In this document: in pieces, positions 27,949 to 63,700 of the stretch
Layout: every line of letters begins with the position of its first letter
How positions within the stretch are numbered: position 1 is the first letter of the stretch
Assembly (NCBI GenBank): GCA_030390025.1
Contig: CM059432.1
Span: 25,980,001-26,044,000, forward strand
DNA length: 64,000 bases
DNA from: Squalus acanthias
Taxonomy: Eukaryota
Direction: 5' to 3'
The notes under the pieces: generated by a model
Database searches by the model: none
The model's input: only the letters and a program-made list of their open reading frames with translations
What the model was told of the DNA's origin: nothing
Made by a program: the position numbers and the translations under genes

Positions 27949-28781
27949 GGGCAGAATTTTCATTGACCCGTGGAGGCAGGTTTGGAGGCGTGTGGGGTGG
28001 GAAAATAGCAGATTCGGGGGTCCCGAACCCATCCCGCCTCCATGCCAGTTTCACAGGAGGCGGGTACCCGACCTGTGCTGGGAGCCGCCTCCCTGAGGCG
28101 GGAAGGGGATTCGTGCCAATAAACTGCCTGTTAACAGGTAGTTAACAGGCAGTTTTTTGCCTAATCCCTATTTTTAGCCCTGAATTGTGGGCTACCCGAC
28201 GGCTCCAAACCATGCCGTTTTAGCGAGGCAGACTGTGGGTCTGCAGGGGTTGGAGGGGTCGAGATGTCCGGTGGGCAGGTGAGTGATGGGTGCATGTGTG
28301 CAGAGGTAAGTGTGTAAGGTAAGTGTAAAGTGTGGAAAAAAGTTTTACTTACCTTAACTTCCTTCTGCAGGTGTCAGCCCTTCAGGTCTCGGGAGTCAGA
28401 AATCTCACCGGCACAGAAAGCAGAATGGTCGTTTAGCTGTCAAAAACTGCAGCCTCTGCTTTTTGTTCTGCAGAGATATCTAAATCAGCCTGAGAGGAAG
28501 GAATTAACTTAGAGGACAGATTGTCAGTGTTTGACAGCTTCAAGGAGCTGTCAAACGCTGATATTTCATCTGTCAAAAGCTCTTGACACATGAAATGTCA
28601 ATCTGTGACATCACCTGTTGCCGGGTGGCCCTTAATTGGCCTGCTGAGCCCGCTGGGCGGGCTTAACAAGGTCAATCAAGGGAAAATACAGTGGGTTGGC
28701 CACAAGTCGATGGAGGCGGGACTACAACCCAAACAGTGGGAGTCCCGCCTCCATCATGTCCCCATTGACAAAATCCAGCCC
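27949..28781. mobile_element. Harbinger-type MITE
   Basis: TIR gggcagaatttt/aaaatccagccc; TSD ATA/ATA; sister copy at 36934-37740. Confidence 0.85.
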
Positions 28782-29120
28782 ATAGAGTTAAGAGCTGTTG
28801 CCAGGAGATATTTGGCACTAAATAGTAAACAGTTTCTTCAAGGTAGCGTTAGTGAGAATTCCATTTGAGGATAGAGAAGATCACAGATCACCTTAAATAT
28901 CCTACCTTTATTTTAATCCTTGAACTGAACATTCCAACAATTATGGAAGAAAGTAGAATATAAAAGCCCTCTTTTACAGCATTTCACAAACTGTGAATAC
29001 TGCAAAGTAACTTGCATTTTAAAATATATTGAACAAGTGTTGAGATGAGCTTCATGAAGGAAAATTCCTCACAGATTCATTAGCTAGCCAAGAGAATGAG
29101 ACACCAAAACCAGAAACAAT

Positions 29121-30652
29121 GGCCGCAAATTTAATTGCGCTGAGGGGGCAGGTTTGGAGGCGGGACCACTGTCAAAATCGCTAAGATTGACAGTGGGTTG
29201 GAAACCCAGTCAACCCGCCTCCACGTGAGTCTCCCAGGTGTCGGGTCTGTCAGCACAGAACTGACCTGACACCAAGCGGCAGGGGAGACAATTCTGGTAG
29301 TTAAATGGCTTGTTAAGAGCCAATTTAAGAGTCTTTTGAGGCTTACTTGTAATTTTACCTTCTCCCCCACTGGTTACCCGCTGTTCGGGGAACACGCCAA
29401 CTCAACCTGGTGTGTTGAGAGTCTGGTCTGAAGTTTGTGAAAAGATGACAGCTGCAGAATTGGTGTCAAGGATGCCATGTTGCAGATGGTGAGTTTCAGA
29501 GCAAAGAAAATGTTGGTTATTGCATTTTTAATACAGATACAGATTTCTTTAGCTTACAAGTTTTTAAATCCAACTGTATGTCCAGTGCCACCTCATTGGG
29601 AGAACCTCTCTCACCAGTGACAGATAGCTTCTGTTATCTCACCTGCAGCTGCCATCTATTCCAGCAACATCGGAGCCAATTAAACAATCAGACCTTGGTC
29701 CTCCAAATCCTTCCACAATCAGCCCCAACACCACATCACCAACCTTCGCCGCCATCACCTGATGCTGCACTGGACACAGGGCATCAGCCCTTGACAAAAT
29801 TGCTGGCTGGGAGGCCAGCGATGGTATCACCATGGCCAGACTTTCTTCACTTGATGCTGTAAACCCTGGCTGCCACATGATGCGCCAGGTTGACACCATC
29901 CCACACCAGCACCGTGAAGCATCCCTTTAATGTTCAAGCCATTCCATGCACACACATCACTATAGCGGGGCGGTGGGGGGAAGTTATGACTGAACAATCA
30001 CTGGAACTCAGTAAGACACTTCTCAATATGTGCTCAGATCTGTCCAATAAGGGGCACTTTTTGAAAAAGAGATTTCACTGTATGACAACACATTACCAGA
30101 AACTTCACATGGACATTGGCTAAACCTCTCAAATGCCCACCCTTGTGTGTTGTTAGTTGGTAGGCTTGCAGTAGAATGAGAGTGAGTGTGAGGGGTGGCT
30201 CATGAGATGGGGAAGTGATAAAGTAGATAGAGAGGGTTGGGTGGAGGTGCAAGGTAAGTTGGTGTCCTAGGGAGGTCTCTTCCGCCCTTGGAAGGGAAGA
30301 GAACCTCCCTGCTTACTGTGACTCCCTCCATAAGCATATGGAGGGAGTCATTGGAGAGCCTGGGTGCAAGAGTTTACCTTTGTGCAGTGAGTGTCAGTGT
30401 TTTCAGCACCTCAATGCTGTCAAACACTGACAAAATAAAATTGTGCATTGTCCCTTTAAGGAAACCGGCAGATGATGCGTCATCAAATGACGTTACCAGA
30501 CCCACTTCCTGTTAATTGGCCTGTAAGCCCACAGGGCGGGTTTAACAAGGCCAATCAAGGGAAAATCACGTCTGCAGAGCGGAGGCTGCTGGGGGCGGGA
30601 CCCGGAAACCAGCTGACCCGCCCCATCCCGCCTCCTCCATTAAATTCTGGCC
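29121..30652. mobile_element. Harbinger deletion derivative
   Basis: TIR ggccgcaaatttaat/attaaattctggcc; TSD AAT/AAT; internal blocks shared with 35338-36262. Confidence 0.8.
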
Positions 30653-34564: not shown

Positions 34565-34771
34565 TGCAAAACACAAGAACTGCTTTAATTAAAAAAATTA
34601 AATGTACAGATATATTTACAATTTTACAATCTTCAAAAGTTCACAGTTTCAATTTATACGAGGAAGCAAAAATGAAGTAGGATGTTCATTTCTGTAAGAT
34701 GACTGCCATTCTGTGGACTGCTGTGCTGCTCGGCTTCATTTTAACCAGTGACAGGTCAAAAGCACAGTCTC
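34565..34771 (-). other. candidate downstream alternative terminal exon of the KHDRBS gene
   Basis: Acceptor ttatttgtccttcaacAG|G (AG at 34773-34772); ATTAAA at 34589-34584 followed by a GU/U-rich tract; unique sequence; no transcript data. Confidence 0.45.
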
Positions 34772-35019
34772 CTGTTGAAGGACAAATAATGATCTTTATT
34801 TCTGGTACATTTTGAGTTGTTCTTTTTAGTAAATACAAATCACCAGAGGTTACCTTTACCTGCTGCTTTCAGCAACTTGAAAACATTTCAGTTCCTATTC
34901 CAAAATCAATTCTTGTATTCTATTTACTTGGCATTGCGATCCCCAAGTAAAACATTCATTAGCTACTATAAAATTACTGTTGGATGCATGATCCACATCT
35001 GACTTAAAATACAACAAAA

Positions 35020-36460
35020 AAATTTTTTTGGGATGTGGGGGTCGCTGGCAAGGCCCGCATTTATCGCCTATCCTTAGTTATCCTGAGAAAGTAGTAGTGG
35101 GCTTTCTTTGTAGTGGTTTAATACAACTGGGTGGCTTGCTATGCCACTTCAGACAGCAGTTAAGAGTCAACCATGTTGGTGTGGGACTGGAGTGATATAT
35201 AGGCCAGACCAAGTAAGGACAGCATGGTTCCTTCCCAAAAGACACATTAGTGAACCAGTTGGGTTTTTATGACAATCCGACAGTTTCATGGTCACGTAAA
35301 TTTTTACTTTGTGCGATAGTGTAAAACGGGAGATATTGGGGGGAATTTTGCTGGCGCTCAGGGGGCGGGTTTGGAGGCGGGACATCTGGCAAAATCGCAA
35401 AGATGTACAGCGGGTCGGAAACCCGCCTCCAGGCAATCTTCCCAGGTGTCGGGTCCCCGATTTGCGCAGGGACCCGACACCTAGCGGCGGGAGGAGGATT
35501 ATAGGCACTTAACTGCTTGTTAACAGGTTGTTAACGGGCAGTTAAGAGGCTTTTTTCAATTTTGACATGTCTACTGCAGGCTTCCCGACGTCTGGACACC
35601 ACGCCAGGTAAGTGTGGTGTGCTGTGGGTCTACTGTAATGTTTGTGCATTGATGACAGCTGCAGAAGTGGTGTGAAGGATCCAATGGTACACTGGTGAGT
35701 TTCAGAGGTAAGAAAATGTTGGGAAAATCATTTTTAATGTATTTAGACTTTTCTGTAGGTGACAAGTTTTGAATTGTTTGTGTAGTCCCATCTCATTGGG
35801 AGAACCTCTCTCACCAGTGACAGATCGCTTCTGTAACCTCACCTGTAGCTGCCATCTGTTCTAGCCTAAGGAGGGAGTCACTGGAGAGCCTGGGGGTAAG
35901 GGCTCACCTTTGTACAGTGATTATCAGTGTTTGCAGCACATCAATGCTGTCAAACACTGAAAAATCAGCTGTCAAAAAAAAGTGTGTGTGGCCCCTTTAA
36001 GAAAACGGCAGATGACGCGTCATCAACTGACGTCATCTGACACCGGCTTCCTCTTAATTGGAGGCGGGACATCTGGCAAAATCACAAAGATTGACAGCGG
36101 GTCAGAAACCCGCTGTCAACCCGCCTCCAGACAATCTTCGCAGGGCGGGCTTAACAAGGCCAATTGACGCAAAATCGCGTCTGTGCATCGTTGGGGGCGG
36201 GGCTGGAACCCGGAAGGCAGCTGTCCCGCCCCCAAGCTGCATCGACCGGTAAAATCGAGCTCATTGAGTCTGCAGCCCGTTTTACTTCTCTCCCGATTTT
36301 GACTTCAATAGAAATAAAAATCGTGAGGCATGTAAAACTGGCTGCTGATTCACTATCATCTGTTTTACACTGTCGCAAGATCTACCCCATGTTCTCTAGA
36401 TTATTATTCCAGGCCTCCGGATTACTGGTCCAGTAACATAACCACTAAAATACCGTACAC
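35020..36460 (-). mobile_element. tRNA-SINE interrupted by a small MITE (~35296-36388), itself interrupted by a MITE at 35338-36262
   Basis: SINE halves match 42155-42585; inner TIR ggggggaattttgc/ggtaaaatcgagctc with ATT/ATT; outer arms gcgatagtgtaaaac/gttttacactgtcgc. Confidence 0.72.
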
Positions 36461-36933
36461 CCTTGTAGTGTTTATTGACAGTTCTTTTAGAATAGAGAAC
36501 AGAAAATATTCTTCTGTGTTCCACAAAAACAGAAAAGAGATATTGTAGATTTTTTGATGGGGCCTCTCATTAAGAGTTCAGGCAGTGCATTATTAACATC
36601 TGCCCAACGATTAGTGTGCTGACCATGCCCTATTTTCCTGTTCACTGTCATTTACAGCATTAAGGCGCTAATAGTCAATATTGGGCTTGACATTAAAGAA
36701 ACCAGAGGTGGGGGAAATTGCATAAAAGCAGCCCTGAAATAGGTGCTGAGTAAATTTAAAGCCACCCAGCCACTAAAAGGTAAATGGCCACGTACAAGAA
36801 TACAAACATTGGTAGTCTTTACAAAAGCATCTAAGATTATTGATGTATATTTCAGCCTTTGCAAAGGTTGAATAACAAAAAAGTCTGGAAAAATCCATTG
36901 ATTGGTATAATAGATGTGGAGGCAGAAAACTGA

Positions 36934-37740
36934 GGGGGCGATTTTGCCAGCCCTGGGGAGGCGGGTTTGGAGGCGGGACTGCTGGGAAAATGGCAGAATC
37001 TGGGGGCGGGTACCCATCCCGTCCCCAACCCGCCTCAGTGCCATCTTCCCAGGAGGCGGATAGCCGACCCGCGCTGGGCCCCGTCTCCTGGAGGCGGGAA
37101 GGGGATTACAGCCACTTAACTGCCTGTTAACAGGAGGAAGTTAACAGGCAGTTAAGAGGATTATCCCCATTTTTCCACCAGAGGCGCGGGCTTCCCGACG
37201 TCGGGAAACCCCACCAGGGTCACCCAGGCGAGCAGTGGGTCTGCGAGGGCCGGAGGGGTGCAAAGGTGCGCTGTGGAGGTAAGTGATGGGTGCAATTGTG
37301 GAGAGGTAAGTATGTGAGGTGAGTGGAAAGTGATAGAAAATGTTTATTTACCTTTGTTTCTTCCTGCAGGCTTCAACCGCTGGGGATGCGGAGAGTCTCG
37401 CATCTCACCGGCAGAGATGACAGATGGCTGCTGCATTCTCTGATGCAACAACCATCTAATTTCTGCTCACAAAAGAGGTTTGATGAGTCTTGAATACAAG
37501 AACTCATCAAACAACAGAGAACGTCAGTGTTTGACAGCTTCAAAAACAGTGAAATGTCATACACTGATGTTCTCTGTAACCAGCTTCCCCTTAATTGGCC
37601 TGCTAAGCCCGCTGGGCGGGCTTAACAAGGTCAATCAAGGGAAAATAGGGTGGGTTGTCCACAAGTCGATGGAGGCGGGACTAAAACCTGACAAGTGGGA
37701 GTCCCGCCTCCAAAAGCTCCCCATTGACAAAATCCAGCCC
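36934..37740. mobile_element. Harbinger-type MITE, sister of 27949-28781
   Basis: TIR gggggcgattttg/caaaatccagccc; TSD TGA/TGA. Confidence 0.85.
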
Positions 37741-37892
37741 TGAGTCTCTTCTCAAACGATGGAATGGCACAACACTCCAACCCTTGTTTGATGGGTAGTG
37801 AAGTGGTGGTGGTGGTGGTGCAGAATGATGTGTCACCGAACGGGTAATGCTGTTTGCCACTCCAAGGCAATCTCCTCAGAGAACAGCATACC

Positions 37893-38440
37893 CTGGAAGA
37901 ACATAGGAACAGGAGTAGGCCATTTAGCCCTTCAAGCCTGTTCCGCCATTTAATTATATCACTCCATCTAGCTGCCTTGGTTCCATGTACCTGAATACCC
38001 GCGCCTAACAAAAATCTATCAATCTCAGTTTTCAATTGACCTGGCCTCAACAGCTTTTTGGGGGAGATATTTCCAGATTCCCACTAAGCCTTTGTGTGAA
38101 GAAGTGCTTCTTAACATCACCCCTGAACGGCCTAGCTCTAATTTTAAGGTTATACCTCCTTGTACTGGACTCATCCAACAGACAAAATAGTTTCTCTCTC
38201 TCTACCCCATCAAATCATTTAATCATCTTAAATAGATCATCCCTTAATCCTCCATATTCAAGGGAATACAAGCCTAGTCTATGAAATCTGTCCTCATAAT
38301 TTAACTCTTTTAGCCTTGGTATCATTCTGGTGAATTTGCGCTGCACCCCCTCCAAGGCCAATACAGTATATCCTTCCTGAGGTGCAGTGCCCAGAACTAA
38401 ACACAGTACTCCAGATGTGGTCTAACCAGAGCTTTATACA
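37893..38440 (-). mobile_element. CR1 3' fragment
   Basis: Reverse-complement CR1 tail gaacataggaacaggagtaggcc and LVRPHLEYC remnant. Confidence 0.8.
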
Positions 38441-38759
38441 CCACTAATGGAATGTAGCGGGAGAGCACTTGAGGCTGTAGCCAATTGTTACTACCAATGG
38501 TAGTGCCAGCCCTATAATGCATGCAAACTGCAGGTAAACTTGCAGCAGATGCCATAGCTCTGCATTTGGGTGCCTACTACCTGTGTAGCCAATTTCACAC
38601 AGTCGCTGCCAGGTAGGCCTGTAAATGGTGATCTGGGGAAAATGGCATTCTGCCTCTGATGCAGCCTGACCTGCCTGGCATCCCTTCATTGGCCTTTCTC
38701 TTCTTCCTCCAAAAACAATGGGGAATTCCCATTGAGAAACCCATTATCTTAATTCCACT

Positions 38760-39192
38760 AACAACAATAGCAACCTGTATTTATATAGCACCTTTAATGT
38801 AGTGAAACATCCCAAGGTGCTTCACAGGAGCGTTATCAAACAAAATTTGACACCGAGCCACATAAGCAGTATTAGGGCAGATGACCAAAAGCTTAATCAA
38901 AGAGGTAGGTTTTAAGGAGGGTCTTAAAAGGAAGAAAGAGAGGTAGAGAAGCAGAGAGGTTTAGGGATGGAATTCCTGAGCTTAGGTCAATGGCAGCTGA
39001 AGGCACGGCTGCCAATAGTGGAGCGATTACAATTGGGGATGCACAAGAGGCCAGAGTTGGAGGAGCGCAGATATCTTAGAGGGTTGTAGGGCTGGAGGAG
39101 ATTACAGAGATAGGGAGCGGCGAGGCCATGGAGGGATTTGAAAACAAGGATGAGAATTTTAAAACTGAGGCGTTGCTTAACCAAGAGCCAAT
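38760..39192 (-). mobile_element. L2-clade LINE 3' fragment
   Basis: VKQRLSFKILILVFKSLHGLAAPYL; same family as 11695-12175. Confidence 0.87.
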
Positions 39193-39649
39193 GTACGTCA
39201 CACTAACGCACCAAAATAATAGCAGTGTCAAAACACTTGGCACAAAGGCTCCAGACCAAATAAGTGAAAACAGGAAAGGAAACGCAAGATTAAAGTGTTT
39301 GGAAATAGCTTCAGAAATGTTGCTACAAATCTCTCTATAGGGCTTCATAAACAGCACATCGGTCAGCCCTGGGATGGATGAGTCCTATATTGGTGTAAAC
39401 ACTGGGAAATTGTGTGGACATCTAAATAACGTAAAGGGGGCTAATTTTAATATAAATAACCAGAAACTGGTTGGATGTGGTGCTAAATAAGTGGAAATTT
39501 ATTGCAACAGAGATCCACACACCTTTCATTTAGTACACCCACTTTGTGCCATTAAATAATCCTAAAGTAAGCATACATTCCGTTGTAGAAGTTAGTTATT
39601 TTTATTATTACACATGACTGGGTTTTATATACAATGCATTTGAATTTTA

Positions 39650-39827
39650 TATATATTGTAGTTTTCTGGCTTTATTATAAAATGAGTGAACGCGGCAGGG
39701 GAAAAGAAACTGTTTTTGTAGTGAAGTGATAACACAAGCCATCATCCAGCAATACGCAAATCTGAAACAGTAATTCTATTTTTGTGAAAATGTCAGCCAC
39801 TGTGTTCAGAATATATAAAAATATAGA
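39650..39827 (-). other. second candidate downstream terminal exon
   Basis: Acceptor ccttatttctctcccccctacAG|T (AG at 39829-39828); AATAAA at 39676-39671. Confidence 0.35.
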
Positions 39828-40769
39828 CTGTAGGGGGGAGAGAAATAAGGTTATAATTTAACTGTGTGGTTCAGGTAACATCAAACTGCAACAATGACAC
39901 TAAAATGGCTATGGACATCATCTGAATTTGGCTTTAAGCCTTTTATAAAAACAGATTGTGATGGTGTTTCAAAGCACTGAAAATAATGCTAATCATTAAA
40001 AACAGAATTGAAACTGTATTTAATACAGCAGTGCCAAAATTGAAGTACAATGGTGTATAAATTAATAGAACACTGCAGTTTCAGCAATGATTCACCAGGA
40101 TGAAGGGACTTAGCGATGGTGAAATCCTGAGTAAATGTGGGTTGTATTCCCTGGTGATGAGGAGATCAAGGGACGATCTAACTGAGGTGTTTAAAATAAT
40201 GAAGGGAATTGATACGGAATGACTCTTCCCTCTAATAGGAGATGCTGAACAAGGTGATATAATCTTAGATTTACATTGAGGCAGTTAAATATGATTCAGG
40301 GAGAACGCCTAACAGCCCCAGAAGCCCATAGATGCAGAATCAATAGAGGCTTACAAAGGGAGATAGATATTTACTTTGGAAGTAAGGGTATTAAGGAATA
40401 TATGGAGAGAGAAGGGATTTAGGATTAAAAAGATTGAATTGCATTGCTAATAAAATGGTGTAGCAGATTCGATAAGCTTACTCCTGTTCCTGTACAGTTC
40501 TAAAACAGAATTCGAAGGTTAAGAGCTATTATAAAGCCCTGTATTACAGTTCACTTAAATGATTGTGCCCAGCATTGCAAGTACTTTACCAAGTTTGTAT
40601 GAAAATAAATGCCCAAATGAGGTAGGTACAGGGTATTGCAAGAGCTGGAGTTCAGCACTGGTCCCCTCGATTAAGTACAATTATGAGCCTTATAGCTTAT
40701 TTTCAGAACTTAAGATGCTAGATATTCAGTCAGCATTTGAAAAGATAAAAGAACAACTTTCATTTATAT

Positions 40770-41060
40770 AACATCTTGCACATCCTCAAGATGTGCCAAA
40801 GCACTTCGCAACCAAGGGGAATGGTCACCAGGACACCAACAGAGCTCTCTGCTCTCCTTCAAATAGTGCCATGGGATCTTTTACATTCACCTGAACAGGC
40901 AGACAGGGCCTCGGTTTAAAATCTTATCTGACATACAGCACTCCTGAAAATACCACATTGCCTCAGTACTGCAATGAAATATCAGTCTAGTTTAAGTGCT
41001 CAAGTCCTGAAACGGGGCTTGAGCCCACAACCTTCTCACTCAGTGCTACCACTGAGCCCA
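40770..41060 (-). mobile_element. degenerate Deu-SINE
   Basis: aaatagtgccatgggatcttttac..cagacagggcctcggttta matches the 20893 copy. Confidence 0.7.
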
Positions 41061-42154
41061 ACTAATATACTTCATACATTTCACATGCAGATCCTGTATT
41101 AGAACCTACATATAAATTGTTACCCTGTATTTTCTCTTCTCAGATGCTGATGGAACTACTGCGTATTTATGGTGTTTTCTGTTTTTGTTCCAAATTTCCA
41201 GTTTTTTATTTTTTATTTTTATAGTTTATTTCCCCCTTCCTCTAGGAAGGGCCTGTCCTCAACTGGCACTTGTCCAGGATAGCACATTTTAAAATAAGAG
41301 GCTCACTATGGTAAATCCCAGGCATAGACCATCTCTCTGTGGTGCAGGGTGTTGGAGCATTGCCAATAGAGAATCATGATTACAGCCCTTGATTAAAAAG
41401 TTAGGCAATAATCATACTATACAAGATACTATAGAATGGCCAAACTCCTCATTCATGGAAGAATAATCCTCTGGATGGTGTACACTGACCTGAAAATATT
41501 GTTAATTTTAATTTCATCCCCATCTTAACTCTCACAAAGATAATACTTTAATCATCACCAGTCTTGTGATTCAAAAAGGATTACCAAACATGACATTTTA
41601 ATTTTGTGGACCCAGGTCTGCTGAGAACTGATTTGAGAGCAAGACTGACTTGTTTTACTACATTACAGCATTTCTACATTAATAACAGTGAAAACTATTC
41701 AAATAACTGAAATACATGGTCCAGCTACTTACATAACTCTAATATTCAGGATTCAGACATTTACAGATAAATCATTCAATTATTTTACAAACAACATATT
41801 TAGATGGTACTGAGCCATAAGGACCAGAAAGATCTCAGGTTCTAATTTGTGCTAGGTTAGTTGATCTCAACCAGAAATGACATTACAATCATCCTCAATG
41901 TTGCTGGGCTGGGATGGAGAAAAATATTAGGTCAGTTTCCACTCAACACTATCAAATGATTCCCGTTGGAAGGTGTATGTGTGTATACGGACATTGGGTA
42001 GTGACACGATTCAGATCGGCTATGATGCCCCCTTCCACAGTAAAATGTATGGAACGCTGTGAAATTGACAGATGAGCCTCAGTTGTTGTGGATGGGCATT
42101 CACTGTCTACATTCAAATATGAAGAATGGTTCCTTGCATGAGGTACCAAGAACA

Positions 42155-42585
42155 GTAGCATAGTGGTTATGTTGTTGGACTAGTAATCCAGAGGCCTGGA
42201 CTAATGATCCGGAGACGACGGCAGCTGGGAAATTTAAGTTGAGTTAATTAAATAAGTCTGGAATATAATAGTATCAGTAATGGTGAACATGAAACTACTG
42301 GATTGTTGTAAAAACCCATCTGGTTCTGTCCTTTAGGGAAGGAAATCTGCCATCCTTGTCTGGTCTGGCCTGCATGTGACTCCAGACCCACAGCAATGTG
42401 GCTGACTCTTAACTGCCCTCTGAAATGGCCTAGCAAGCCAGTCAGTTGTACCAAACTGCTACAACAAAGTCACTGTGGGAGTATCTTCACCACAAGGACC
42501 CCACCACCTTCTCAAGAGCAATTGGGGATGGGCAATAAATGCCAGCCTTGCCAGCAGCGCCCACATCCCGTGAATGAATTTTTTT
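42155..42585 (+). mobile_element. tRNA-derived SINE with the tail of the second CR1-like family
   Basis: Head gtagcatagtggttatg; body ggaaggaaatctgcc..gactccagacccacagcaatgtgg; tail gggcaataaatgccagccttgccagc..cccacatccc. Confidence 0.78.
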
Positions 42586-42995
42586 AAATGGCTTTGTATA
42601 TATCCATGCAACTGTACACTAGCATGAGTCAATGTCTTCAAGAGAGAAGGGAAGGAGCAATGAAAAAAATCTGTGTTCTAGACAATTGCTGTGTTGAACA
42701 GTTTGATGGGCATTCAGTACTCAAAGGGTCAACACCTGTAATTATGTGAGCATTCAGAAGTGAAGACCGCTGTAAACACCTACCATAATGCCCAATTCCA
42801 GGACCACTGTTTTTATTCCCATTTGGCCAGAGATGTTAGAAAAAGATCCTGTAAGTGGAGGGAAAAAATTGTGAACATAAATATATTACGAGCACAATTA
42901 AAAACCAGAATGAAATAATAACTCTTAGAAAACAGACAAGCCTTATAAAAACACTACCATGCAATGCTAGAAAAAAAGACATTGTTTAGAGTGAA

Positions 42996-43001
42996 TTTAT
43001 T
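42996..43001 (-). terminator. probable main polyadenylation signal
   Basis: AATAAA followed ~18 nt later by a U-run and a GU-rich stretch (tttttttctagc..ggtagtgttttt). Confidence 0.6.
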
Positions 43002-44256
43002 CTGATTCAAAATCAAACATTTGAGACTAACTATGACAACATTATAGACAAAGGTTATGTGGTTTTTACACTTTGTTTAACAGGATAGAATTTAAGAGAT
43101 CAGTTACTGCTTAGTTTGCAGTTATATAGTTTAGTCTCTACACAATTACAAGATCGATTTATAATTGTTAGGAGTTTAGAAGTACTTGAACCTTTTCTAT
43201 AGTAATTTTTTTTACTCTAACAACTTTACAACCTTGCTTTTAGCGTTTACTGGTTTTAAATGTTAAAGGTAAATTAAGTGATATTAAAATCTACTTGATT
43301 CATTTACCTTTGGAACTGAAGACCTTTTAAGGGTTACACATCCACTGCCTCTGACGAATGCCACATTAGTCAAGTCTGTTTGCCTCTAAAAAGCTTTAAT
43401 TGCTTCCAGCGGAGGATTCATTTAGGTAATTCTCATAAAAATTCCAAAGTGCACTAGTGAAAAAATGCTTAGACAAGATGAAATGCTGATCACATTCTTC
43501 ATATATTCACTGCTCAGTAGTGTATTTTCAAAGGGCAACAATATGGACTTTTTTGTTTTTTAAAACATCATTCAGGTATCGACCTCTTAAGACAAACTGA
43601 TTTTTTTTAAAAGAAAATTTTAAAAAGACAAAAGTATGCTTTCCCTGTTTAAAAGATTTTTGTGGATTTATTATTTGGCGTTATAAGAAAATGTATCAAA
43701 GTTACTGATATGTCACACACAGCAAGTTTGTTTTTTTTCTCAAAACTTTATTTGTATCAAGCAAGAATAGTCAATGTCTTTGATCTCAACACTACAGAAT
43801 ATCTGGAGACTTCAGTTACAAAAGAATACAACTTTACTTGGCATTTGGAGTTTACTGTGGTTTAAGTAAAAGTTTACAAGGGATAAAGCTCTAACACAAG
43901 CTAAAATTAAAGTTCAAACCAAAACTTAAAACTAGCTTTTAACAAAAACTGAAAGCAAAACAAAAAAAACATTGATGTTAACTGAATTTGTGTTTACATT
44001 TTAAGTGATCTACATTATCAAACCTAGTTTGGTAATAGATTTTTAAAGTCTAGTTAAACTTAAAAACCGTGTTAATCCTGTTTACTCGTTTCCAACAGAG
44101 CACATAACAAGATCAAGTCTTTCTTCCCACCCACCTCCTTCCAGAGATCAAATAATCTCTCCATCTAAGATTACGGACTTCATACAAGAGTTCAGAACTG
44201 GTTAAACAGATCTGTTGTATTTAAGAAAGAAAAAAAATCTTTTTTATAAAATAACC

Positions 44257-44265
44257 AATTACTTT
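44257..44265 (-). promoter_or_regulatory. candidate 5' splice site in the 3'UTR (AAA|GTAATT)
   Basis: GT at 44262-44261, 68 nt after the stop codon; use is inferred from mammalian SLM biology, not shown here. Confidence 0.4.
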
Positions 44266-44330
44266 TAACATCGTACATCACTGCAGAAACAGCTAACTGA
44301 TGATTGTATTTCACAGAGTAGATGGTGGGA

Positions 44331-44431
44331 TCAGTATCGTGGTGCGTAGGGGTGCTCCCTGTATGCTCCTTTAGGTGCTCTTGTTGGAGGAGCTTTCATC
44401 CGTGAGTTGGAGTTCGTCCACTCTTCCTGAC
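44331..44431 (-). CDS. KHDRBS3: terminal coding exon of a KH-domain STAR RNA-binding protein (SLM2/T-STAR)
   Basis: Phase-1 acceptor ..ttgtttttctgtaataactacaatAG|GT; translates (G)QEEWTNSNSRMKAPPTRAPKGAYREHPYAPRY*. This matches the KHDRBS C-terminus; GQEEWTNS is KHDRBS3-like while KGAYREHPY is Sam68-like, so the paralog call is less certain than the family call. Confidence 0.88.
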
Positions 44432-45019
44432 CTATTGTAGTTATTACAGAAAAACAATCTGCATTAGAGCAGTGAAGAAACCCACAATAATACTCACTGG
44501 AAGTTCAGATGGTAAACTAGAGCTTTAAAATCGTACTCTTGTATGAGAGACCAACATTCGTACATCAGAATTTTTTTTTAAATGGTTAATTGTCTTTGAA
44601 AAACTGCATCACGATCAAAAATGGAATTCTCCAGGTATCTGTTTTAATTTTCTACAACAATGTTTGTAATTTCTGGTTTTCAAATCGGCTTTTTCATCAC
44701 GAAAGTTAAACAATTGTGAATGATGCTTTATCATATTTATTATGGCAAGTACGTAGGCAGTCAGGTGCTAAGTTAAAGTCATGTGCATTTTTCATTTAGC
44801 TTGTTTTTATAACATTTTAGCCTGATGAAACTTTCTGATCTACAGTAGGTCTGATGAAGGTGTGGTAAGATGTGGGATTTTTGCATTTGATGTCATGCAG
44901 TTTTGTAATAACAAGAGTTGAGATGGAACTAGACTTCAGGGAAGAGGTCTGGAGACAACTTGGTTGTGGGACCAAACCAAGTTGTTTGATCTATAAATTA
45001 GTCAAATTACAGTGACTCT

Positions 45020-55085: not shown

Positions 55086-58000
55086 CTCTTTACAAGTCTT
55101 TGCTAACTGTAACCAAATAGACCACACAATTAATATCTTCATTTAATGAGACTGAAGGATCTTAGAACCATCAGATTAGTGGAAGACAGGACAGAAGGCT
55201 GTGTGAACCAATCAAATCAGTTGGAGCACAGGAATAAAAGCCTTTGGAATCATGAAACCTGTTGAAGGGTGGGACTAGAGGCTGTCGAAAACAATCAGGC
55301 TGTATTTTCTCTCACTGTTAGCTGCACTTGAATTAAATATTAACATGAGCTGTTGGTTTCTGAAAGTTACAGATGTTTATTTGGTGTTTGTCTCCAAAAA
55401 AGTGATATTTACCAAAACATTTGCTAAAATTCAAAGGAACTTTCAAGGGAATGCCTAATTGTTGGCATATGTGGAGGTTTATTTTCTTCAGAGAATGATT
55501 GCAGTGGCTTTTTGAGACCAGGAAGATGTTCTCTGCTGTGAATGTATTAACTGGCTTTACTTACGCATTCTTGTCACTTGCATAATTGCCAGAATTTGGA
55601 AATAAATTGGGGAGTAAGGTTGGAATGGTGACAAGTTTTACTCAATTAAAAAAATTACATTCAAATTTACACTAAGTTCCAAAATGCACCAAACCAGGAA
55701 TCAAAAATCAAAGTCTCCTGGGGAGGCATGCTTCAGACCTTTTCCCTAGAAAGTAAATCTCATACCTTCAGCATTCAGATCTCTTTGAATAATTTCTAAA
55801 TCCACCACTACTGCTAATTCTGCTTTGTGTACTGCAATAAAAGTGATTAAAGTCATAATCGTGTAATCTACAGCTTAAATTAAAAGTTTTGTCCCACTGT
55901 ACTTTAAGTTTAACTCTTTGTCTTCATGTGCCACTATATTCAGAGCTTTTTTGAGCCATTAGCCGATGGCCAGCTTTTGCTAGCTTTCCAGATTGGCAAG
56001 TATGCATGATTGAGTTGGCACGTCATCTGACAAAGATGGCATCACAAACGAGTTTGATTCTGTCCTCAACCAATGTCCACACAAATGAATTTCCAGGAGT
56101 CATGGATGGTTATTAGGAGTGAATCACTGGTCAATTTTCACCTCTCTAACCGGGGGCACTGAGATAAATGTAGCACACCTACTGCTATCCTGGCTGAGAT
56201 CACCTAACTCAGCAAAGGAATCAAACCTCGGACCTACCTACTCTGAATGGCTTAGAAGATACAAGTAGTGAAGGTGGAGAAAAAGCCAGTTGGCTCATCG
56301 TTACTCTCCTAGTTCAACTTTGCTAATGTCTTTGTCTCTATTAGCTTAATTGGGTCGATTATCAGTTATAATTTTACCTTTCACCAATTTAAACATTAAT
56401 TTGCTGGTCCTATTATTCTAACTACTATGAAATAGTATAAAGAGCTTAGCTTATTTAGCCTATTTGAACCCCCTCAGTCTCCACTCTAGAGTGCACAGCT
56501 TGAGTTTTTTAATCTTTCATCGTTGCACTGGGATCATTCTCACTGCCCTCTGCAATTTTTTCAACGCATACATGTCCCTTTTGTAGCGCGGTAACCAAAA
56601 CTAAACACAGTACTCCAGCTCTGGCACGTGCATTACAAAGCAGAGTACTACCATTTCTCAGTACTGATGGACCTACTAGTACTCACAGAACATAGTACTC
56701 CAGGTATGGTCTGGCCAGTACATTACAGAGTCTTGGCATAACATCTGCAAACTTATACTCTGCTATTCCGTCTACTTAACACAACATTCTACGAGCTTTT
56801 TAATTGCCTTGCCACACTATCTGGACAACCACTCACTAGATAAACTTGCTGTGCAATCGGGGAGCCAAAATCCAATTTTTAAAGAAATTTTTATTGTTAC
56901 CAAATGTGGCTGTCAACTACAATTTTTCAACTTAAAAAAAAAATAAACTATTTGTGAAAGACATTTCTGGGTAGGAATGTATTAGACACACTTAATGTTT
57001 ACAACAGTAAATACTTATCGACCCTTATATACTAATAAAAACAGTTTTATACATCAATGTAATTTCCCAATAATGCCAATGGAAAGGCAGCCAAGTACAC
57101 CAGTAAATCAGGTTCTTTCTTAACCTCTATCATGACCTTTGGAATCAAGTAGCTGATCCAAGAAGAATCCATCTGCTGTAATGCTCAAGAAAGCGATTAC
57201 ATTAGATTAGAGCCTCTATTAATGAGAAAAAACATGTATAAAATAATTTTAGCTATAAAAGCTTGTCTTGCATGGTTTTGATGTTAACATATCTGTCTCA
57301 AATCTTTGTTACTGGTCCCATTCTTGTTCCCTTAGTTTAATTCTCACATAACCTGGCTGCAAACACATAGGGGTTGATATTAACGCTGAGGCGGAATCTG
57401 AGTGGGGTGTGGGGGGTTGAGTGCGGAAGGTGCGGGGGCCAATAGCAGACTGCAAATGCAGAAGATCGTGGGCGCATGGGAATGTCCAATTTCAACAGGG
57501 ATGCTTTGTTATCATTTTACTTTCGGGTTTCGCATCTCCAATGTGCGTGAACGGGCATAATGCGCACCCGTGTGATGCAATTTCACCGTGACTATTTAAA
57601 GGGAAATGCACAGATAGAATTTGGAGGAGTTGGGAGCATTGTAGGAGAGAAAAGTAACTTGAGATGGTGTCAGGAAGGGCAAAGGCTGCGCCCCTGTTTA
57701 ATGAAGCATCCCTTGATGTAGTGCTTGGTGCAGTGAGGGTTAGGAAGGATGTCCTATTCCCCAGTAATGGCAAGAGAAAACCTGCTGCTGTGATGAAGAA
57801 GGTGTGGCTAGAGGTGGCTGAAGAGGTGAGCAGCAGGAGTGTAGTGCTCTGTACCTGGATTGCGAGCAGGAAGCAGTTTAATGACCTAACCAGGTCAGGA
57901 AAGGTGAGCACAGTTGCAGATTCACCCCATCTCTCACTCTGTCTTGTCAAGCGTACTCCATCACATGACTCCTCACACCTACTTAAGTTTCAGCAGCACC

Positions 58001-58448
58001 CATTGTTCTGTTTCAATTCACTTCCTCACCTCCCCCTTTCTCCATCTATCACTGCCACTCACCCAATCCTTATGTAATGTGATACTACATGAGTCAGCTT
58101 ACCAATTCTCAACACATATCCTCTAATGGCACTGTCAACACGTCCCAAACTGCATGTCAGTGCCACTCAGGATGCATCTTCACCGAATGCACACATGCTT
58201 TAGAGACACTCATACGTCTGTCGTGCGTCCTTGCAGGAGAAAACAGCATAAAATACAAGGGAGAGGACCAGAGGTGGGCCACCACAGATCGTCCAATTGA
58301 CATTTGCAGAGCAGGAGGCCATGGAGAAAAATGGGATATCAGCATCCTGAAGCATCAGAGATGGCAAGACTCAAACTTCAGTGCTACACGGTGACATTAT
58401 TAAATATCTCCAACCCACATCTCATACAAGACTAAGTCATACAAGACT

Positions 58449-62758: not shown

Positions 62759-63700
62759 CTAACTGAAGCTTTGGTCTATTAGGGCATCCCAAGCAGCAAA
62801 GTGATCAGCTGCACTGGCGTTGGGAGCCCCATCATCACCTTCCTCCTCCTCGCCACTGGAATCCTCATCAGATGTCGTGCTGAGCAGCTTGTTCCTCCTG
62901 CATATCAACATCCTGCAGAACGTAGAACACCTCGCTGGGGAGTACTGAAGGGCGTCTCCAGACCAGTCCAGGCACCTGAAGGACATCTTGAGCATGCCAA
63001 CGGCTTGCTCGGTGATACATTTGGTTGTCATATAGCTCACGTTGTAGCACTCTTGGTGTTTATTAGTAGGGCTCCTCAGAGGTTTGAAGGGGGTATCCTT
63101 GGTCACCTAGCAGCCACCCCTTAAGGCTGGTTCCAGGTATGAACATGTTGGGAATGTTGGACTGCCCCAGTATGAAAGCATCATGGAAGTTCCCAGGAAA
63201 TCTGGCGCAGACCTGCATGAACCTTTTCTTGTGGATGCACACCAGCTGAACATTGATGGAATGAGATCCTTTACGGTTGACGAATGCTCCTGGTTGATTG
63301 GCAGTGCTCGGATTGCCACGTGTGTGTAATTGATGGCACCCTGCACTTGTTGGAAGCCAGCTAGAGATGTGCATCGGAGTGCCTGCTCATTCTGGCTATT
63401 ATCATCACAGTGAAAGTTTACATACCTCCCAGCCCTGACAAACAATCCATCAGTCACCTGTTTAATGCATTTATGTGCAGCTGACGGAGAACCCTCGCTC
63501 TGTCTCTGGTAGCAACCTTGAAGGAACCAGTGGCAAAAAAAATTGAGGGTGGTGGTGACTTTCACAGCCACTGGTAATGCGTGGCCACCAGGTAGCAGGT
63601 CTTCTTCTAGGATGCTGTGACCACCTGACATGACAGCTTTCAGAAGCAATGCTCTTCCGAGAGGTCAAGGAAGCCGAGCCTCTGTCTATAGACACTGTTA
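62759..63700 (-). pseudogene. Harbinger (HARBI1-like) DDE transposase, frameshifted
   Basis: CIKQVTDGLF, VQGAINYTHVAI, FVNRKGSHSINVQLVC, ARFPGNFHDAFIL, WLLGDQGYPL and EQAVGMLKMSFRCLD, spread over three ORFs. Confidence 0.9.

What the first reader, a model, noticed from the sequence alone, without database searches (positions are those of the whole stretch)
34565..44431. Candidate splicing-coupled NMD feedback cassette at the 3' end of a shark KHDRBS3/SLM2 gene
Seen: a donor-like AAA|GTAATT (GT at 44262-44261) lies 68 nt past the stop codon, beyond the ~50-55 nt NMD threshold. It is followed by a UTR rich in UAAA/UUAA. Downstream, on the same strand, are well-formed orphan acceptors with their own polyA signals (39827, 34771). 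Established: STAR proteins bind U(U/A)AA repeats. As I recall, mouse Khdrbs2 and Khdrbs3 are regulated by splicing from a donor inside the last coding exon to downstream non-coding exons, which triggers NMD (Traunmuller 2014; Ehrmann 2016). Inference: the same homeostatic circuit exists in cartilaginous fish, which would date it to the jawed-vertebrate ancestor.
Basis: partly seen in the sequence, partly recalled or inferred. Interest (0 to 1): 0.75.

Follow-up and report, generated by a model that had tools for sequence, protein, structure and literature searches.

The report
Shark SLM2 self-limiting poison exons
Shark RNA contigs show the gene for the splicing regulator SLM2 (KHDRBS3) splicing past its stop codon onto two non-coding exons, as in mouse, human and chicken, which likely marks the mRNA for decay so that the protein would limit its own level: a known circuit, now seen in cartilaginous fish.

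Summary
The gene is KHDRBS3/SLM2. One RNA-type contig joins exon 9 to two downstream non-coding exons. The donor used is GT 44276-44275, 54 nt past the stop, not 44262. A related species shows the second junction too. The layout matches 'alternative end 2' of mouse, human and chicken Slm2. Ehrmann 2016 (PMC5199341) already inferred that the loop predates the three paralogs, so the dating is not new; NMD and autoregulation in shark are inferred, not tested. Side finding: a decayed retrocopy on contig C10 holds 1.7 turns of exon 8 + exon 9a of the probable Sam68 paralog, joined at that paralog's UTR donor, most simply a circRNA-derived pseudogene. The scan noted a similar UTR acceptor in an octopus KHDRBS gene before (e1-9912833, unchecked).

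The parts
44331..44431 (-). coding part of the last coding exon (exon 9) of KHDRBS3, ending in TGA 44333-44331
   Evidence: contigs of 3 runs leave the genome at 44432 into exon 8 sequence found in L003
44277..44330 (-). 54 nt of UTR kept in both ends (exon 9a); holds no UWAA motif
44275..44276 (-). weak UTR donor in use (GAT|GTACGA), 54 nt past the stop
   Evidence: joint in run X5 skips 1428 nt with GT..AG ends; three contigs of X5 meet at 44276-44305
   Evidence: no joint or loose end there in 3 of 3 covered runs
43747..44276 (-). UWAA-rich UTR of the unspliced end 1 (intron start of end 2), up to the first AATAAA at 43752-43747
   Evidence: end-1 contigs of 3 runs stop at 43785-43798 (weak hint of the 3' end, no DNA run laid)
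42784..42848 (-).
   Evidence: 12 of 4169 AG sites score as well; covered by contigs of X5 and X17
34584..34771 (-). terminal non-coding exon (exon 11) from acceptor CAACAG|G to ATTAAA 34589-34584; its 3' end is inferred from the hexamer
   Evidence: loose end of X5 matches 34741-34770 with 0 mismatches; that of X17 matches 26 of 30 letters; single match in the genome

Best explanation
Shark KHDRBS3 has two 3' ends: an unspliced UTR, and a form spliced from a weak donor 54 nt past the stop onto two non-coding exons, which likely is degraded by nonsense-mediated decay and likely is promoted by SLM2 protein itself. Shown: the junctions 44277/42848 and 42784/34771 in contigs, GT-AG ends, an unchanged reading frame. 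Inferred: (1) SLM2 binds the UWAA cluster that starts right behind the donor and helps U1 snRNP hold this weak site, as SAM68 does through U1A on mTor intron 5 (PMC6486544, abstract). (2) Splicing then overrides the end-1 poly(A) signal at 43752, since exon 10 lies 900 nt beyond it. (3) The first junction, at 54 nt, sits on the recalled 50-55 nt border, so the second junction, at 119 nt, would be what makes decay reliable. More SLM2 would mean more doomed mRNA: negative feedback.
For:: X5 contig 5 (148 nt, depth 6.9) carries all three pieces; its loose end is window 34741-34770 exactly. X17, another organism (28 changed letters and 16 gap letters in 631), joins exon 10 to an exon-11 look-alike. 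No processed copy of exon 9 or exon 11 turned up in the assembly (one match each). UWAA is absent between stop and donor and enriched behind it, the pattern reported for mouse, human and chicken. In human cells end 2 is induced by SLM2 and stabilised by cycloheximide. Both paralogs carry CAA|GTAATA 80 and 78 nt past the stop, and a retrocopy is joined at that site.
Against: The donor joint stands in 1 of 3 covered runs (1 of 4 laid; 24 listed), one contig, with 30 letters on the short side, one below the tool's 31-letter rule for bridging. X17's contig does not reach the donor. X4 shows end 1 only; X11 laid nothing. The runs are only guessed to be RNA (their exon 8/9 junction fits RNA), tissues are unknown, and no DNA run was laid. 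In X5 the spliced contig has half the depth of the unspliced one (6.9 against 13.6), which is high for a decay substrate, though contig depth is a poor measure. No sequence homology of exons 10/11 to tetrapod exons was shown: four published Slm2 primers match no better than on the control strand. For SLM2 itself the source paper saw no consistent stabilisation after UPF1 depletion and could not follow the endogenous protein.
Confidence: 0.78

Rival explanations
1. End 2 is a stable alternative 3' UTR that escapes decay and changes mRNA location, translation or microRNA control; the protein is the same.
For: The isoform is plentiful enough to assemble in 2 of 3 covered runs without NMD block, at half the end-1 depth in X5. 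The first junction is only 54 nt past the stop. UTR-spliced beta-catenin isoforms are reported as stable (PMC4683092, passage).
Against: The second junction is 119 nt past the stop. In X17 the spliced contig has depth 5.8 against 150. The human counterpart is stabilised by cycloheximide.
Confidence: 0.12
2. End 2 is a decay substrate, but it is driven by a paralog (Sam68 or SLM1) or by other factors and not by SLM2 itself.
For: All three proteins share the UWAA target; cross-regulation is known in the family: SLM2 on Slm1 and on Sam68.
Against: In mouse, loss of Sam68 leaves Slm2 end 2 largely unchanged and loss of Slm2 lowers it.
Confidence: 0.07
3. The junctions are splicing noise from cryptic sites, or an assembly artefact, with no function.
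For: The donor is weak (3.7 bits), and acceptors of this quality with a poly(A) hexamer occur 0.5-1.7 times per 10 kb. Each junction rests on one contig per run.
Against: The same exon 10/11 junction in two organisms and studies; exact GT-AG ends; a two-exon layout identical to three tetrapods.
Confidence: 0.03

Closest known systems
Slm2/KHDRBS3 'alternative end 2' NMD feedback of mouse, human and chicken (Ehrmann 2016, PMC5199341)
   Same: Orthologous gene; 5' splice site inside exon 9 past the stop; two downstream non-coding exons; UWAA motifs depleted just upstream of the donor and present around it.
   Different: Seen here in a cartilaginous fish. A second donor-like site lies 14 nt downstream. 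Donor position and exon sequences could not be aligned to tetrapods. Decay and dose response are untested in shark.
Sam68/KHDRBS1 end 2 (PMC5199341; PMC11077083) and SLM2 control of Slm1 (Traunmuller 2014, not read; seen only as cited)
   Same: Internal donor in the last coding exon joined to downstream non-coding exons; the shark paralogs on C3267 and C9 carry CAA|GTAATA 80 and 78 nt past the stop.
   Different: Forward splicing of the shark paralogs was not tested with RNA. The C3267 site is shown in use only in a fossil joint back to exon 8.
CircRNA-derived pseudogenes (Dong 2016, PMC4897178), for the side finding on C10
   Same: Non-colinear exon junction at splice sites, introns removed, no poly(A) tail at the 3' end.
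   Different: The copy runs about 1.7 times round the circle and its back-splice donor lies in a 3' UTR. The text read describes mouse and human cases and mentions no multi-turn copy.

Membership tests
KHDRBS3/SLM2 gene | STAR/KH protein closest to KHDRBS3 among the three paralogs | tested here: met
   Exon 4: best PDB hits are KHDRBS3 (81 bits) over KHDRBS1 (67). Among the 120 listed of 470 hits, those named for a paralog are all KHDRBS3; the top hit is 100% identical. Exons 2-9 lie in order. No tree or synteny test was run.
STAR 'alternative end 2' feedback cassette | 5' splice site inside the last coding exon, past the stop | tested here: met
   Joint at 44277/42848 in run X5; one contig, 30 letters on the short side
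STAR 'alternative end 2' feedback cassette | Two downstream non-coding exons spliced on | tested here: met
   42848-42784 and 34771 onward, in X5 and X17
STAR 'alternative end 2' feedback cassette | UWAA sites depleted upstream of the donor and clustered near it | tested here: met
   0 in 54 nt upstream; 25 in 529 nt downstream, 13 of 1000 shuffles reach it
STAR 'alternative end 2' feedback cassette | An exon junction more than about 50-55 nt past the stop (rule recalled) | tested here: met
   First junction at 54 nt (borderline), second at 119 nt
STAR 'alternative end 2' feedback cassette | End 2 is stabilised when NMD is blocked | not testable with these tools
   Needs cycloheximide or UPF1 loss
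STAR 'alternative end 2' feedback cassette | End 2 rises with SLM2 level and in brain and testis | not testable with these tools
   Run tissues are not on record; contig depth gives no levels
STAR 'alternative end 2' feedback cassette | Donor and exons homologous in sequence to the tetrapod ones | tested here: inconclusive
   Only published 20-mer primers were at hand; best matches have 6-7 mismatches, as on the control strand
CircRNA-derived pseudogene (C10 copy) | Non-colinear exon-exon junction at splice sites | tested here: met
   Exon 9a end followed by exon 8 from its first base, 27 of 32 letters alike, against 8 of 40 to the parent's own continuation; a 2-nt insertion lies 5 nt before the joint
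CircRNA-derived pseudogene (C10 copy) | Intron removed and no poly(A) tail | tested here: met
   Exon 8/9 joined twice; 3' flank has no A tract
CircRNA-derived pseudogene (C10 copy) | The parent circle exists as RNA | not tested
   No reads were laid on the paralog

The most novel reading that the evidence does not exclude
The STAR feedback donor has two outlets: forward onto poison exons (decay) and backward onto exon 8 (a 237-nt circle that removes the mRNA's 3' end). The C10 copy of the probable Sam68 gene is a germ-line fossil of that circle, reverse-transcribed for about 1.7 turns and later split by a 2149-nt insertion. I put the circle origin of the copy at about 0.8; the probability given is for circularisation being a regulated second outlet of the feedback switch in sharks.
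Probability: 0.15. Interest if true: 0.7.

Novelty: new member of a known kind. Interest (0 to 1): 0.42.

Why it matters
The direct evidence I found in print for the SLM2 cassette stops at mammals and birds; its greater age was inferred from paralogs (PMC5199341). Shark junctions extend the observed range to the other branch of jawed vertebrates and give exact exons for an RT-PCR or minigene test. It confirms a published inference and does not overturn anything. The 54/119-nt geometry suggests a testable reason for two poison exons. The multi-turn retrocopy is the more unusual item: a genomic record that a UTR donor of a STAR gene was used by the spliceosome in the germ line.

Tried and rejected
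Donor 44262: no joint, loose end or contig break in 3 of 3 covered runs; contigs drop rare forms, so minor use stays open, and its likeness to the paralogs' site argues for keeping it as a candidate. Acceptor 39827: RNA was laid only on 42700-44500 (4 of 24 listed runs), so it was not covered; both junction contigs skip it. No listed run is on record as RNA. X11 laid nothing, which is no evidence. Published primers as homology probes: no signal above control; the best hit of mSlm2BlExR1 falls in exon 11 but with 7 mismatches, against 6 on the control strand. Exons 10, 11 and the 39827 stretch have no convincing look-alike in 20 kb downstream of either paralog or in 200 kb upstream of the window (best E 0.1). 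Extra conservation around the donors in organism E (1 change in 73 nt against 20 in 479): limits chosen after the fact, not significant. A pattern search for exon 8 in the window found nothing; the exon lies in L003. The PDB search did not name the C3267 paralog (KHDRBS3 79 bits, KHDRBS1 74.5); one search gave 5 of 8 names as KHDRBS1(-like) and 3 as KHDRBS2(-like), so 'Sam68' is probable only; C9 as SLM1 is by elimination. A recent tandem duplication as the source of the C10 copy: rejected, because the two turns are less alike (120 of 143) than either is to the parent (124, 126) and the joint falls on splice sites. No look-alike windows in other genomes of the scan.
Full report
Observation. 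The window is G000:C8:25980001-26044000. On the minus strand an exon starts at 44431 and its frame ends in TGA at 44333-44331; GT at 44262-44261 lies 68 nt further on; acceptors at 39827 and 34771 and their poly(A) hexamers are present. A recalled, approximate weight matrix shows that these motifs are common: 307 of 3350 minus-strand GT sites score as well as 44262, and acceptor-plus-hexamer pairs of this quality occur 0.5-1.7 times per 10 kb on either strand. The sequence alone could not carry the claim.

Gene identity. Exons 2-8 lie in order in the 200 kb fetched upstream; exon 8 is in L003, about 21 kb from exon 9. Exon 4 matches solved KHDRBS3 better than KHDRBS1 (81 against 67 bits). Of 470 hits, 120 were listed, and those named for a paralog are all KHDRBS3, the best being a 100% identical shark entry with Qua1, KH and Sam68-YY domains. 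The gene is KHDRBS3/SLM2. I did not determine the species.

RNA evidence. The run search listed 24 holders, none on record as RNA, 18 guessed as RNA. Four were laid on 42700-44500. Three had cover, and in all three the contig leaves the genome at 44432 and goes on in exon 8 sequence, as spliced RNA would. In X5 (organism A) one 148-nt contig of depth 6.9 has 30 letters at 44305-44276, then 42847-42783, then 53 loose letters. The joint skips 1428 nt with GT..AG ends, which puts the donor at 44276-44275 and the acceptor at 42848. The loose letters match 34741-34770 with no mismatch and nowhere else in the window. Two other X5 contigs end or begin on the same 30 letters, as expected at an assembly branch. 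In X17 (organism E; 28 changed letters and 16 gap letters in 631) a 152-nt contig of depth 5.8 joins exon 10 to a sequence matching exon 11 at 26 of 30 letters; it does not reach the donor. X4 shows only the unspliced end; X11 laid nothing. No run shows a joint at 44262. Exon 9 and exon 11 each have one match in the assembly, so a processed copy is an unlikely source of the joints.

Anatomy. End 1 is the unspliced UTR; its contigs stop at 43785-43798 in three runs, 33-46 nt before AATAAA 43752, a weak hint of its 3' end. End 2 is exon 9a, exon 10 (65 nt) and exon 11, with introns of 1428 and 8012 nt and junctions 54 and 119 nt past the stop. The protein is unchanged, since the stop precedes the donor. 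UWAA motifs number 0 in the 54 nt before the donor, 6 in the next 100 nt and 25 up to the hexamer (shuffle mean 16.6, sd 3.5; 13 of 1000 reach it); beyond the hexamer they are not enriched (207 of 1000).

Mechanism. Shown: the two junctions. Inferred from mammals: SLM2 binds the UWAA cluster and favours the weak donor, perhaps through U1A as reported for SAM68 on mTor (PMC6486544, abstract only); splicing overrides the end-1 poly(A) site; junction complexes left behind the stop trigger decay. The 50-55 nt rule is recalled (the review read does not give the number). The first junction is borderline under it and the second is safely beyond, which may be why two exons are used; that is my inference. 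Against: in X5 end 2 has half the depth of end 1, which is much for an unstable RNA, though in X17 it is 5.8 against 150 and contig depth is a poor measure.

What is known. [quoted passage not shown] PMC11077083 (passages) adds SLM2 control of Sam68 end 2. Traunmuller 2014 was not read; it is known to me only as cited. Searches for a fish or shark report (listings only, open-licence library) showed none.

Paralogs and a retrocopy. Two more genes turned up: C3267, probably KHDRBS1 (5 of 8 names; PDB test inconclusive), and C9, KHDRBS2 by elimination. On C10 (L037, minus strand, 8659-6108) an intronless copy of the C3267 gene reads: the last 20 nt or so of exon 8, all of exon 9a up to that donor, exon 8 from its first base (27 of 32 alike), a 2149-nt insertion whose ends resemble LINE sequence (label recalled), the rest of exon 8, and 143 nt of exon 9a. 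That is about 400 nt of a 237-nt unit. The two turns differ from the parent at 6 shared, 12 and 10 private places of 143, which fits one old insertion and not a recent duplication. There is no poly(A) tail. This meets the test of PMC4897178 (part 1 of 2 read, which held the main text) for a circRNA-derived pseudogene. A 2-nt insertion near the joint leaves the donor side uncertain by up to 3 nt, and template switching or a duplicated parent are not excluded. Listings showed no multi-turn copy and no such Sam68 circle by title or abstract start; I did not open those papers.

Verdict. A real, expressed cassette of a known kind, with corrected coordinates: donor 44276, exon 10 at 42848-42784, exon 11 from 34771. 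Confidence in the feedback-by-decay reading 0.78; novelty: new member of a known kind; interest 0.42, of which a part is owed to the retrocopy.

Noticed in passing
L037:8659-6108, minus strand (G000:C10:80126108-80128659): Intronless copy of the probable Sam68 paralog made of about 1.7 turns of exon 8 + exon 9a, joined at the UTR donor and split by a 2149-nt insertion; likely a circRNA-derived pseudogene.
   Followed up: partly
L024 (G000:C3267 ~1983980) and L027 (G000:C9 ~28665465), minus strand: Both paralogs carry CAA|GTAATA 80 and 78 nt past the stop, and GTG|GTCA at 52 nt, near the 54-nt position used by KHDRBS3; two tandem donors may be shared by all three genes.
   Followed up: partly
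window 42817-42812, minus strand: An AATAAA lies inside exon 10; further hexamers at 43672, 43400 and 43001 could give longer end-1 UTRs.
   Followed up: no
window 57658-58077 (+) and 62759-63386 (-): Myb/SANT-like (PF13873, below cut-off) and DDE_Tnp_4 (PF13359) fragments in intron 8; these two families go with PIF/Harbinger-type transposons (recalled).
   Followed up: partly
window 28000-30600 and 35300-37750: A dispersed repeat family in several 60-93% alike copies on both sides of exon 11, some inside intron 10.
   Followed up: no
window 44431-44456, minus strand: The constitutive exon 9 acceptor is purine-rich and scores poorly (2452 of 4169 AG sites score as well), yet is used in 3 of 3 covered runs.
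   Followed up: no
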